Positions 24,001 through 27,000 of a stretch of DNA of 64,000 nt are shown here, piece by piece; position 1 is the first letter of the stretch, and every line of letters starts with the position of its first letter. Position numbers: made by a program. This DNA is from Escherichia coli (GTDB lineage: Bacteria; Pseudomonadota; Gammaproteobacteria; Enterobacterales; Enterobacteriaceae): NCBI RefSeq assembly GCF_022846255.1, contig NZ_AP025682.1; one strand, given 5' to 3'.

Positions 24001-27000
24001 ATCCTCTGGCACTACACCCGTAATCGCAATTTAATGGATGTCACGAATAGCGATTTTTCCCAATTTCACGTAGTCCGTGACAAATTTTTGATCTCCCTCG
24101 CGGTGTTATCTCTCGCAATACTGTTTGCTGTAACGCATATACATCAACTTATCGTATTTATTGAGAGAGTCGCATGACAGGAAGTCAGGTCATTGATGCT
24201 GAAGAGGACAGGCATAAACTGGTTGTAGAGTACAAGGATGCTCTGCAACCTGCCGATTTTTATCACAATTTCAAACAACGGGGTATCCGCTCCGTACAGC
24301 TTATTCCCCATCTTGAATTTGATGACCGGGGCGATCTGACGGCCGCTTCGGTGACAGCAGAGCTGTGGGGGAAATTTTTAATTGCCCTGTTCGAGTGTTG
24401 GGTACGGGCAGATATCAGTCGTATTTCGATTGAGCTTTTTGACGCCACCCTACAAAAATGGTGTGGCAGCGAAAACCCGCAACCGCGTCGTGGCTGCCAG
24501 GCGTGCGACTGGCATCGCCTGTGCCCGCACGCTCGGGAGGAGACGCCAGACAACGTGCTTTGTGCGGGCTATCAGGCGTTTTATTCTTACTCCGCGCCGC
24601 ATATGCGGGTGATGCGTGATCTGATAAAGCAGCATCGTTCTCCCATGGAGCTGATGACGATGCTGCGGTGACGTGAGCTTAAACAGGCTGCCCCTGATGC
24701 GACATCCGCGTCGCCAGCGGTAGCCAGCACAGCACGATCAACAATCCCATTAAGGTCATCAACAACCCCAGGCTGCCCTGACCGGTTTGCGGCAACATCG
24801 CAGAGAGCGACGCCAGCACGCCGGAACCAATGTTTTGCAGACCGCCGACCAGCGCGCCAGCGGTGCCCGCCAGGAAGGGGAACGGCTCCATCGCGCCGCT
24901 GGTAGCCAGTGGAAACAGCATCCCGGCACCGAAAAAGAACAGCGCGGCGGGAATGAGCAGCGTCCAGACATTCATCACGCCAAACCAGTCGGGGATCCAC
25001 ATCAGCAAGCCAGCCAGCAGGCAACAGATAACCGACTGCCACATCAACGTTGAGAAGCGTTTATTGGGACGTCCGGCAAACCATGCGCCAAAAAATGCCG
25101 CCGGAATCGGCAGAATAAACAAAATACTGACCGTCATACTGCTCAGCCCTAACACCGCGCCCATCAGCACGCCGGAGCAGGCTTCAAAGGCGGCAATTCC
25201 GGCCAGACCGCCAATCAGCATCAGCAAATAACAGTTAAAACCGCTGTTACCGAAAAGCGTTTTATAACTGGTAAGCAGGCGCGTGCGCGGTGCGTCGACC
25301 GGACGCGTTTCCGGCATCCAGCGGGCCATACTGAAAGTCACACCGGCACAAAGAACCAACAAAAAGAGATAACAGGCACGCCAGTTCCACATCGTATCCA
25401 GCAGACCGCCGATTAGCGGTGCGAGCAGCGGACTGACAAGAATCCCCATGTTTAACAGGCTGTTAGCGTGGCGCAACTGTGTCCGTTCATATAAATCGCG
25501 CGGCAAAGTACGCGCCATTACGCCGCCAACGCCGGTGCCCATCCCCTGCATCGCGCTGGCGGCAATCAATACCATCAAACTGGAGGTCGTGACCGCGACC
25601 AGCGTTGCCAGCATAAAAATGGACATTCCGACGAGGATCACCGGTCGGCGACCCACGCGGTCGGAAATCGGGCCATAAAACAGCTGTGAGACACCGTAAG
25701 TCAGCAGATAAGCGCCCATTACGCTCTGCACCGCCCCTTCACGGACATTGAGATCGCGCGCCATATCGGCAATAGCTGGAATATAAATGGTTTGCGCCAT
25801 CTGACCGACGGCCACGAGTAATACCAACATCAATAACAAATTGACGTTTCTATGCCTTTTCATTATCACGGATGCTTTTATAAAAATAATTAGAATAAGT
25901 CACTACGCATTCCCATAAATGCGGGAGAGGAATCTATCACATTGATGAATGTTAGCCAGATATACGCCAGGAATGGGGAATTGTTTAGCGGCAGAATATG
26001 TAAACAAAAGCGGCAATAAATGTTGCCGGAAACAGTGATGGTGCGGTTGGTAGGGTAAGGTGTTTACGCTGTATTCGACATGAATAAGGCGCACTCTGTC
26101 AACAATCTGACCGTCTTTCAGGTGATGATGCTTTATTGCCTGAGTTTCAGTTCAAAATGTGATCTGCCACGTATTTTTATCCGGAAGAAAAATTTTCCAT
26201 TGTCTCCCCTGTAAAGCTGTGCTTGTATAAATATTGTTAAACACAAAACCAACAAGGTCCCCAATGACTACTTCCATGTTCAACGCAAAACTACTACCAA
26301 CTGCGCCATCCGCCGCAGTGGTCGTCGTGCGTGTGGTGGTGGTCGTCGGCAATGCGCCGTAGGGACTGGAACAACACACGATTCCAAAACCCCGCCGGCG
26401 CAAACCGGGCGGGGTTTTTCGTTTAAGCTCCTCCCGGAAAGTCGGCCCAGAAGAAAAGGACTGGAGCATGGCAAGTTCGGGCACAACATCGACGCGTAAG
26501 CGCTTTACCGGCGCAGAATTTATCGTTCATTTCCTGGAACTGCAGGGCATTAAGATTGTGACGGGTATTCCGGGCGGTTCTATCCTGCCTGTTTACGATG
26601 CCTTAAGCCAAAGCACGCAAATCCGCCATATTCTGGCTCGCCATGAACAGGGCGCGGGGTTTATCGCTCAGGGAATGGCGCGCACCGACGGTAAACCGGC
26701 GGTCTGTATGGCCTGTAGTGGACCGGGTGCGACTAACCTGGTGACCGCCATTGCCGATGCGAGGCTGGACTCCATCCCGCTGATTTGCATCACTGGTCAG
26801 GTTCCCGCCTCGATGATCGGCACCGACGCCTTCCAGGAAGTCGACACCTACGGCATCTCTATCCCCATCACCAAACACAACTATCTGGTCAGACATATCG
26901 AAGAACTCCCGCAGGTCATGAGCGATGCCTTCCGTATTGCGCAATCAGGCCGCCCTGGCCCGGTGTGGATAGACATTCCTAAGGATGTGCAAACGGCAGT

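What the first reader, a model, noticed from the sequence alone, without database searches (positions are those of the whole stretch)
26264..26362. ilvB leader peptide differs from the K-12 version at codon 6 (Phe instead of Leu)
The leader reads MTTSMFNAKLL... where I recall MTTSMLNAKLL in K-12. The valine run that mediates attenuation is intact, so the effect is probably neutral, but it removes one of the leucine codons in a leucine/valine-sensing leader.
Basis: partly seen in the sequence, partly recalled or inferred. Interest (0 to 1): 0.2.

Follow-up and report, generated by a model that had tools for sequence, protein, structure and literature searches.

The report
Common Phe6 allele of ivbL leader
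The small leader peptide that controls the ilvB gene does differ from the laboratory strain K-12 by one amino acid (Phe instead of Leu at position 6), but this is the commoner version in E. coli, so K-12 is the unusual one and the finding is ordinary.

Summary
Window 26264-26362 (+) encodes the 32-codon ilvB leader MTTSMFNAKLLPTAPSAAVVVVRVVVVVGNAP. K-12 differs by one base (CTC to TTC at 26279), giving L6F.

It is not a peculiarity of this genome. Among 5418 complete E. coli genomes with ivbL, 3208 (59%) have TTC and 2174 (40%) have CTC. Three alleles each make up roughly a third:
- L6/P15 (K-12 type): 1788 genomes.
- F6/P15 (this window, typical of phylogroup B2): 1533 genomes.
- F6/L15 (O26/O111/O103/O121 strains): 1524 genomes.

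In 72 further leader loci from species-representative Enterobacterales genomes, position 6 is free (L, M, N, R, F and others). Codons 10-11 are almost always CTA-CTA, and the Val run, stop-codon region and terminator are invariant even at synonymous sites. The changed base is unpaired in the predicted leader fold, the minimum free energy is the same for both alleles, and it lies in no conserved helix. A ribosome held at codon 6 would stop 6-9 nt short of the first conserved helix, whereas one at codons 10-11 would enter it.

The best reading is an old, widespread and probably near-neutral polymorphism that is already annotated in RefSeq. A small effect on leucine sensitivity is not excluded, because no single-codon experiment exists. 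Interest is low.

The parts
26264..26362 (+). ivbL, the 32-codon ilvB operon leader peptide ORF (stop codon included), F6/P15 allele, identical to RefSeq WP_001312198.1
26279..26281 (+). Codon 6, TTC (Phe). K-12 has CTC (Leu). The variable base is 26279.
   Evidence: allele counts
26291..26296 (+). Codons 10-11, CTA CTA (Leu-Leu). This is the conserved candidate leucine-sensing pair: CTA in 72/73 and 67/73 Enterobacterales loci.
26300..26319 (+). First helix conserved across Enterobacterales (ACTGC ... GCAGT, codons 13-19), with a covarying pair (CG 41, UA 26, AU 6)
26318..26347 (+). Val codon run VVVVRVVVVV (codons 19-28), invariant at nucleotide level in nearly all loci
26353..26365 (+). TGCGCCGTAGGG segment spanning the leader stop codon. 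It is the predicted 5' strand of the antiterminator and pairs with the terminator's 5' arm in partial transcripts.
   Evidence: prediction only
26390..26419 (+). Attenuator terminator: CCCCGCCGG / CGCAAA / CCGGGCGGGG followed by TTTTT
   Evidence: invariant across 73 sequences. The simple terminator scan did not list it, probably because the stem has a bulge.
26187..26263 (+). ilvB promoter region and 5' UTR, identical to K-12. A TATAAAT -10-like element lies at about 26226-26232 by reading the sequence. The transcription start was assumed at about 26238.
   Evidence: identity. The promoter scan found nothing, so the promoter position is inferred.
26468..28156 (+). ilvB, acetolactate synthase I large subunit, 562 aa, intact
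28160..28450 (+). ilvN, small subunit, 96 aa

Best explanation
This is the ordinary ivbL-ilvBN attenuator of a phylogroup B2-type E. coli, carrying the commonest codon-6 state of the species.

How the attenuator works (established for K-12, inferred here from identity): a ribosome translates the 32-codon leader. If it runs through to the stop codon, it covers the GCGCCGUAGGG segment and the downstream terminator forms. If it stalls on hungry Val codons (19-28) or Leu codons, that segment pairs with the terminator's 5' arm and transcription continues into ilvBN.

The L6F difference from K-12 is a single C-to-T transition in the poorly conserved first third of the leader. It lies outside every conserved RNA helix. 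A stalled ribosome at that position would probably not reach the first helix.

The conserved tandem CUA-CUA at codons 10-11 is retained and most likely carries the leucine signal. The substitution is therefore most likely neutral or nearly so. It is one of three major natural ivbL alleles of E. coli.
For: Shown:
- One-base difference from K-12.
- TTC in 3208 and CTC in 2174 of 5418 genomes.
- Exact full-length allele counts of 1533, 1524 and 1788.
- The window allele equals WP_001312198.1, annotated as IvbL in SK1144, LF82, ST131 and ETEC1738.
- Across 56 distinct 32-aa leaders, position 6 is L19, N9, M9, R6, H3, Q3, K2, F2 and others. L10, T13, A14, A18 and V19-28 are invariant, and L11 (53/56) and A17 (53/56) nearly so. 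Codons 10 and 11 are CTA in 72/73 and 67/73 loci.
- Two Enterobacter lineages independently have TTC Phe at position 6.
- The MFE structure and energy are identical for both alleles (-71.6 kcal/mol), with the SNP in an internal loop.
- The consensus structure of 73 sequences leaves codons 1-12 unpaired.
- The leading edge of a ribosome with codon 6 in the A site ends 6-9 nt before the first conserved helix. With codon 10 or 11 in the A site it reaches 3-9 nt into the helix.

From the literature:
- Replacing all three Leu codons of K-12 ivbL abolishes the Leu response but keeps the Val response. Amino acids with 2-5 scattered codons in ivbL gave no response (PMC11187965).
Against: - CUC, the K-12 codon 6, is one of the three Leu codons at which ribosomes stall during leucine starvation (PMC5446239, citing Subramaniam 2013/2014). 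The K-12 codon could therefore be a real pause site.
- My kinetic proxy (5' arm of the terminator sequestered before the 3' arm is made) predicts antitermination for any stall upstream of about codon 27, codon 6 included. The equilibrium model predicts termination for stalls at codons 6-22. Folding models therefore do not settle whether a codon-6 stall would count.
- From memory, and from the title only as cited in PMC10272879, Hauser & Hatfield 1984 reported that further amino acids affect ilvB attenuation. I recall these as Ala and Thr, whose codons lie partly early in the leader. I could not retrieve the paper.
- No experiment has changed codon 6 alone.
- The near-fixed CTA at codons 10-11 could partly reflect the general nucleotide-level constraint on everything from codon 10 onward, rather than codon choice.
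Confidence: 0.85

Rival explanations
1. L6F is a functional regulatory variant. Losing the CUC codon lowers the leucine sensitivity of ilvBN attenuation. The three natural alleles (Leu codons at 6/10/11, at 10/11, and at 10/11/15) would then be phylogroup-specific set-points for AHAS I expression.
For: - CUC is a starvation-sensitive codon.
- Leu codons in ivbL are required for the Leu response.
- The alleles differ precisely in the number and position of Leu codons, and the B1-type allele gains a CUA at codon 15.
- The kinetic proxy allows any early stall to give readthrough.
Against: - Position 6 is not conserved as Leu across Enterobacterales, and where it is Leu the codon is most often CTG (14 loci, against 8 CTA and 2 CTC).
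- Codon 6 lies upstream of all conserved structure.
- The conserved CUA-CUA pair is intact.
- Both states are at high frequency, with no sign that either is deleterious.
Confidence: 0.12
2. The C-to-U change acts at the RNA level, by changing leader folding or ivbL translation initiation, rather than through the codon's identity.
For: In the single-sequence fold, the first 14 nt of the ORF pair with the Val-codon run, and the SNP lies inside that long-range helix region.
Against: - The base is in an unpaired internal loop.
- MFE is identical, and ensemble energy differs by only 0.23 kcal/mol.
- The long-range helix is not supported by the 73-sequence consensus.
Confidence: 0.02
3. The Phe codon is a sequencing or assembly error, or a private mutation of this strain.
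For: None beyond its difference from the K-12 reference.
Against: The identical 99-nt sequence occurs in 1533 complete genomes, and TTC at codon 6 occurs in 3208.
Confidence: 0.01

Closest known systems
E. coli K-12 IvbL (WP_001300753.1, MTTSMLNAKLLPTAPSAAVVVVRVVVVVGNAP) and its attenuator
   Same: - Same length, and 98 of 99 nt identical.
- Identical promoter and 5' UTR (26187-26263).
- Identical Val run and stop-codon region, and an identical terminator stem, loop and T run; the only downstream difference seen before ilvB is one base (T for A) about 10 nt after the T run.
- Same position upstream of ilvBN.
   Different: - Codon 6 is TTC Phe instead of CTC Leu.
- Upstream of about -51 the sequence diverges, and the tisB/istR locus is missing.
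B1-type IvbL allele (WP_001315912.1, MTTSMFNAKLLPTALSAAVVVVRVVVVVGNAP)
   Same: Shares Phe6 (TTC) and everything else. It is about as common as the window allele, 1524 against 1533 genomes.
   Different: Has P15L (CCA to CTA), which adds a third Leu codon of the rare CUA type. It is found in strains that carry tisB.
IvbL of other Enterobacterales (Pfam PF08049 family), e.g. E. albertii MTPSMLNAK..., Salmonella MNPSMLNAT..., Enterobacter wuhouensis MTPSMFTST...
   Same: - 32-codon layout.
- LL at positions 10-11 encoded CTA CTA.
- The T-A pair at positions 13-14 (the second residue after the Leu pair), the AAVVVVRVVVVVG core, and the terminator.
   Different: Residues 2-9 vary freely. Position 6 is L, M, N, R, H, Q, K, F, S, Y or P.
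Other ribosome-mediated leader-peptide attenuators of branched-chain amino acid operons (ilvL of ilvGMEDA, leuL of leuABCD)
   Same: The logic is the same: clustered regulatory codons, a terminator/antiterminator choice, and use of rare CUA Leu codons. This comes from general knowledge; PMC3783181 groups leuL, ilvL and ivbL as starvation-sensitive leaders.
   Different: Different peptides and RNA structures. They were not compared here.

Membership tests
IvbL, ilvB operon leader peptide (Pfam PF08049 / NCBIfam NF007579 equivalog) | Full-length match to the family profile above the curated cutoff | tested here: met
   PF08049: 75.7 bits against cutoff 25, residues 1-32 of 32. NF007579: 80.1 bits against cutoff 60.
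IvbL, ilvB operon leader peptide (Pfam PF08049 / NCBIfam NF007579 equivalog) | Located directly upstream of ilvB-ilvN on the same strand | tested here: met
   ivbL 26264-26362, ilvB 26468-28156, ilvN 28160-28450, all on the + strand. The same arrangement is annotated in SK1144, LF82 and ZLWT.
IvbL, ilvB operon leader peptide (Pfam PF08049 / NCBIfam NF007579 equivalog) | Cluster of Val codons plus Leu codons as regulatory codons | tested here: met
   Nine Val codons (19-22, 24-28) and two Leu codons (10, 11). K-12 has a third Leu codon at position 6.
Ribosome-mediated transcription attenuator (leader peptide type) | Intrinsic terminator between the leader stop codon and the structural gene | tested here: met
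   GC-rich hairpin 26390-26414 followed by TTTTT, present in the MFE fold and invariant in 73 sequences. The simple consensus scan did not list it.
Ribosome-mediated transcription attenuator (leader peptide type) | Mutually exclusive antiterminator whose formation depends on ribosome position | tested here: inconclusive
   - Predicted pairing of about 26353-26365 with the terminator's 5' arm is lost when the footprint reaches about codon 28 or the stop codon.
- The equilibrium model gives a different set of productive stall sites.
- These are predictions only, with no covariation because the region is invariant.
Ribosome-mediated transcription attenuator (leader peptide type) | Expression responds to Val and Leu supply in vivo | not testable with these tools
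   Shown for the K-12 allele in PMC11187965. Never tested for the F6 allele as far as I could find.

The most novel reading that the evidence does not exclude
E. coli may carry a natural allelic series in the leucine-sensing part of the ilvB attenuator. Leu codons sit at 6/10/11 in the K-12 type and, with an additional T2A change, the O157 type (O157 is phylogroup E from general knowledge); at 10/11 in B2 and some other strains; and at 10/11/15 in the O26/O111/O103/O121 strains (B1 from general knowledge, not tested). This series could tune how strongly AHAS I expression responds to leucine limitation in different phylogroups. The window would carry the least leucine-sensitive version.
Probability: 0.1. 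Interest if true: 0.3.

Novelty: already known. Interest (0 to 1): 0.07.

Why it matters
It matters little. The result is a useful reminder that K-12 is not the species consensus. At this site 59% of complete E. coli genomes differ from it, so a 'difference from K-12' is not evidence of anything unusual.

The only open point of biological interest is whether the three common ivbL alleles differ measurably in leucine sensitivity. They differ in the number and position of Leu codons. A simple allele swap would settle this, and it could matter for people who use ivbL as a Val/Leu biosensor.

Tried and rejected
- An Rfam scan of 25500-26800 found no family for the leader, only a chance-level Hrs1 hit (E = 0.92). 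Rfam seems to have no ilvB-leader model, so it gave no help.
- My first stall model forced one exact terminator register. It therefore saturated at about 0.29 and is only a relative measure.
- The second, kinetic proxy does not separate early stall sites from one another. I therefore do not use folding models to decide whether a codon-6 stall would be productive.
- The promoter scan found no sigma-70 consensus site. The transcription start (about 26238) is my reading of the TATAAAT element and may be off by a few bases. Transcript numbering carries the same uncertainty, but window coordinates do not.
- MAFFT placed the tisB/istR gap misleadingly. I re-derived the junction by direct comparison.
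- Friden et al. 1982 (PMC347078) and Hauser & Hatfield 1984 (PMC344613) are not held, so the original stem assignments could not be checked.
- I did not assign phylogroups formally. B2 is inferred from the tisB/istR-less locus and the best hits (CFT073, Nissle 1917, ST131). B1 for O26/O111/O103/O121 and E for O157 come from general knowledge.
- I considered and rejected a sequencing error and an RNA-structure effect.

Full report
**1. The observation**

Window 26264-26362 (+) is a 32-codon ORF that reads MTTSMFNAKLLPTAPSAAVVVVRVVVVVGNAP, followed by TAG. It matches the Pfam IlvB_leader model end to end (75.7 bits, cutoff 25) and the NCBIfam IvbL equivalog (80.1 bits, cutoff 60). It sits 105 nt upstream of an intact 562-aa ilvB, followed by ilvN.

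I aligned it with a K-12 chromosome (NZ_CP064680.1, locus L001). The 99-nt ORF differs at exactly one base, window 26279, which is T here and C in K-12. Codon 6 is therefore TTC Phe instead of CTC Leu. MG1655-derived ivbL sequences printed in the supplement of PMC11187965 also read ...tccatgctcaac....

**2. How common the allele is**

I used 36-nt megablast queries placed so that every possible 28-nt seed must span the variable base. Only genomes with that base can then seed a hit.
- TTC version: 3208 of 5426 complete E. coli genomes.
- CTC version: 2174 genomes.
- Together that is 5382 of the 5418 genomes that contain ivbL at all.

Phe6 is thus the majority state (59%) and K-12 has the minority state.

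Full-length queries give exact-match counts, because one mismatch in 99 nt is 98.99% and falls out of the >=99% band:

| Allele | Leu codons at | Genomes |
|---|---|---|
| Window type, F6/P15 | 10, 11 | 1533 |
| F6 plus P15L (CCA to CTA) | 10, 11, 15 | 1524 |
| K-12 type, L6/P15 | 6, 10, 11 | 1788 |

The remainder includes the O157 allele (T2A plus L6) and a synonymous variant in LF82.

The window allele is RefSeq protein WP_001312198.1, annotated as IvbL in SK1144, LF82, an O25b:H4-ST131 strain and ETEC1738. The F6/L15 allele (WP_001315912.1) is in O26, O111, O103 and O121 strains. From general knowledge these are phylogroup B1.

**3. What kind of genome this is**

Between emrD and ivbL the window lacks the tisB/istR toxin-antitoxin locus that K-12 and O157 carry. 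It has a segment of about 157 bp (26030-26186) in its place. That segment occurs in 1059 genomes, including CFT073, ABU 83972 and ST131.

Loss of tisB/istR through a complex deletion/insertion in the ilvB-emrD region is a published property of phylogroup B2 (PMC9040746). The best 12-kb matches are ST73-type B2 strains such as Nissle 1917, ATCC 25922 and ABU 83972. The window is therefore a B2-type E. coli carrying the standard B2 ivbL allele. The same exact allele also occurs in at least 474 genomes without the B2-type segment (1533 minus 1059; for example ETEC1738).

**4. Comparison across species**

A pattern encoding VVVVRVVVVVG was scanned over one genome per species. It yielded 95 leader-like ORFs, of which 73 have the E. 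coli 32-codon layout, giving 56 distinct peptides.
- Position 6 is L in 19 peptides, N in 9, M in 9, R in 6, H in 3, Q in 3, K in 2 and F in 2, plus S, Y and P.
- L10, T13, A14, A18, V19-22, R23, V24-28, G29 and P32 are invariant. L11 (53/56), A17 (53/56) and A31 (55/56) are nearly so.
- Codon 10 is CTA in 72/73 loci and codon 11 is CTA in 67/73. Where codon 6 is Leu it is CTG, CTA or CTC.
- Two Enterobacter lineages independently have TTC Phe at position 6.
- The nearest outgroups have Leu at position 6: E. albertii, two Salmonella subspecies and four of the five Citrobacter-labelled loci (CTG or CTA). The fifth, labelled C. freundii M-21 (L094), has His (CAC), but its leader (MTAFMHTSDLLL...) nearly matches that of Atlantibacter subterranea (L062), so that record may be mislabelled.

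Phe is therefore probably the derived state in E. coli, reached from CTC by one transition. It occurs in both the B2-type and the B1-type strains, while K-12 and O157 keep Leu (phylogroups A and E from general knowledge). That pattern suggests either an old polymorphism moved by recombination or recurrent mutation. I did not resolve which.

**5. RNA level**

I folded 188 nt from the assumed start (about 26238) through the terminator. Both alleles give the same MFE structure and energy (-71.6 kcal/mol). The variable base (transcript nt 42) lies in an unpaired internal loop, and the ensemble energies differ by 0.23 kcal/mol.

In a 73-sequence alignment the leader is almost invariant at nucleotide level from codon 10 through the terminator, synonymous sites included, while codons 2-9 vary freely. 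The consensus structure leaves codons 1-12 unpaired. Its first helix is ACYGC/GCRGU at codons 13-19 (window 26300-26319), with three pair types at one position. The terminator is invariant.

**6. Mechanism, and where codon 6 fits**

Established for K-12, from the literature:
- ilvBN is controlled by leader-peptide attenuation that responds to Val and Leu.
- Replacing all three Leu codons removes the Leu response but not the Val response.
- Amino acids with a few scattered codons in ivbL gave no response (PMC11187965).

Predicted here:
- The segment spanning the leader stop codon (about 26353-26365) can pair with the terminator's 5' arm. It stops doing so only when the ribosome footprint reaches about codon 28 or the stop codon.

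Inferred from geometry:
- With a leading edge 12-15 nt beyond the first A-site base, a ribosome waiting at codon 6 ends 6-9 nt short of the first conserved helix.
- At codon 10 or 11 it penetrates that helix by 3-9 nt.

Together with the near-fixed rare CTA-CTA pair, this points to codons 10-11 as the leucine sensor and to codon 6 as a bystander.

**7. Caveats**

- CUC is one of the three Leu codons at which ribosomes stall in leucine starvation (PMC5446239), so K-12's codon 6 could pause ribosomes.
- My two folding proxies disagree on whether an early stall would give readthrough.
- The 1984 Hauser & Hatfield paper could not be retrieved. Its title, and my memory of it, say that further amino acids (I recall Ala and Thr) influence this attenuator.
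- Nobody appears to have changed codon 6 alone (one search found nothing relevant).

A modest effect on leucine sensitivity therefore remains possible, and I give it about 12%.

**8. Verdict**

It is, however, a very common natural allele already annotated in RefSeq, in a non-conserved position of the leader, in a standard B2 genomic context. It is not novel, and interest is low.

Noticed in passing
window 26030-26186 (between ysdE and the ilvB promoter): The tisB/istR type I toxin-antitoxin locus present in K-12 and O157 is absent and replaced by a segment of about 157 bp. The same segment is in 1059 complete genomes (CFT073, ABU 83972, ST131). The absence is already published as a property of phylogroup B2 (PMC9040746).
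   Followed up: yes
window 26150-26186, CRP-like site at 26155-26176: Window and K-12 are identical from 26187 to the ivbL start. Just upstream they are only 24/38 identical. Even so, a CRP-like 22-mer sits at the same position in both (window AAATGTGATCTGCCACGTATTT, 16/22 to consensus; K-12 15/22). B2 strains therefore have a different version of the presumed cAMP-CRP site of the ilvB promoter, which could affect ilvB expression more than L6F does.
   Followed up: partly
L125:1497-1595 and L126:1497-1595 (strains AMSCJX04, 2014C-3057): There is a third major ivbL allele, F6 plus P15L (CCA to CTA), in 1524 genomes including O26, O111, O103 and O121 strains. It loses the codon-6 Leu but gains a rare CUA Leu codon at position 15, where many other Enterobacterales also have Leu.
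   Followed up: partly
alignment A4 (window 26238-26428 and 72 loci): Across Enterobacterales as distant as Proteus and Serratia, the leader is nearly invariant at nucleotide level from codon 10 through the Val run, stop codon and terminator, synonymous sites included. Codons 2-9 are free to vary. That is much stronger constraint than the peptide alone would need.
   Followed up: partly
window 28451-28522 versus L129:6511-7975: ST73-type B2 genomes (e.g. ZLWT, Nissle 1917) carry a DUF6708-domain gene between ilvN and uhpA. The window has only 73 nt there, like K-12.
   Followed up: partly
window 22000-34000: This 12-kb stretch is only 98.9% identical to its best-matching complete genomes, and only one of 5423 records reaches 99%. 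The window's lineage therefore seems poorly represented among complete genomes, or the region is mosaic.
   Followed up: no
window 26080-26214 (+) and 26117-26144: Inside the B2-specific segment there is an unannotated 44-codon ORF (MNKAHSVNNLTVFQVMMLYCLSFSSKCDLPRIFIRKKNFPLSPL) with no Pfam or NCBIfam hit, and a terminator-like hairpin. Nothing suggests function.
   Followed up: partly
L121 (CACSKA010000004.1): A record labelled Chryseobacterium sp. 18061 carries a typical enterobacterial ivbL leader (MNINLNAINLLPTAQPAAVVVVRVVVVVGNAP). The peptide is identical to the 32-codon leader in L022 (Enterobacteriaceae bacterium RIT691). The record is probably contaminated or mislabelled.
   Followed up: no
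L003:1501-1599 (O157 strain 644-PT8): The O157 ivbL allele has T2A (ACT to GCT) in addition to Leu6. About 386 genomes have CTC at codon 6 but are not the exact K-12 allele, and most are presumably this type.
   Followed up: no
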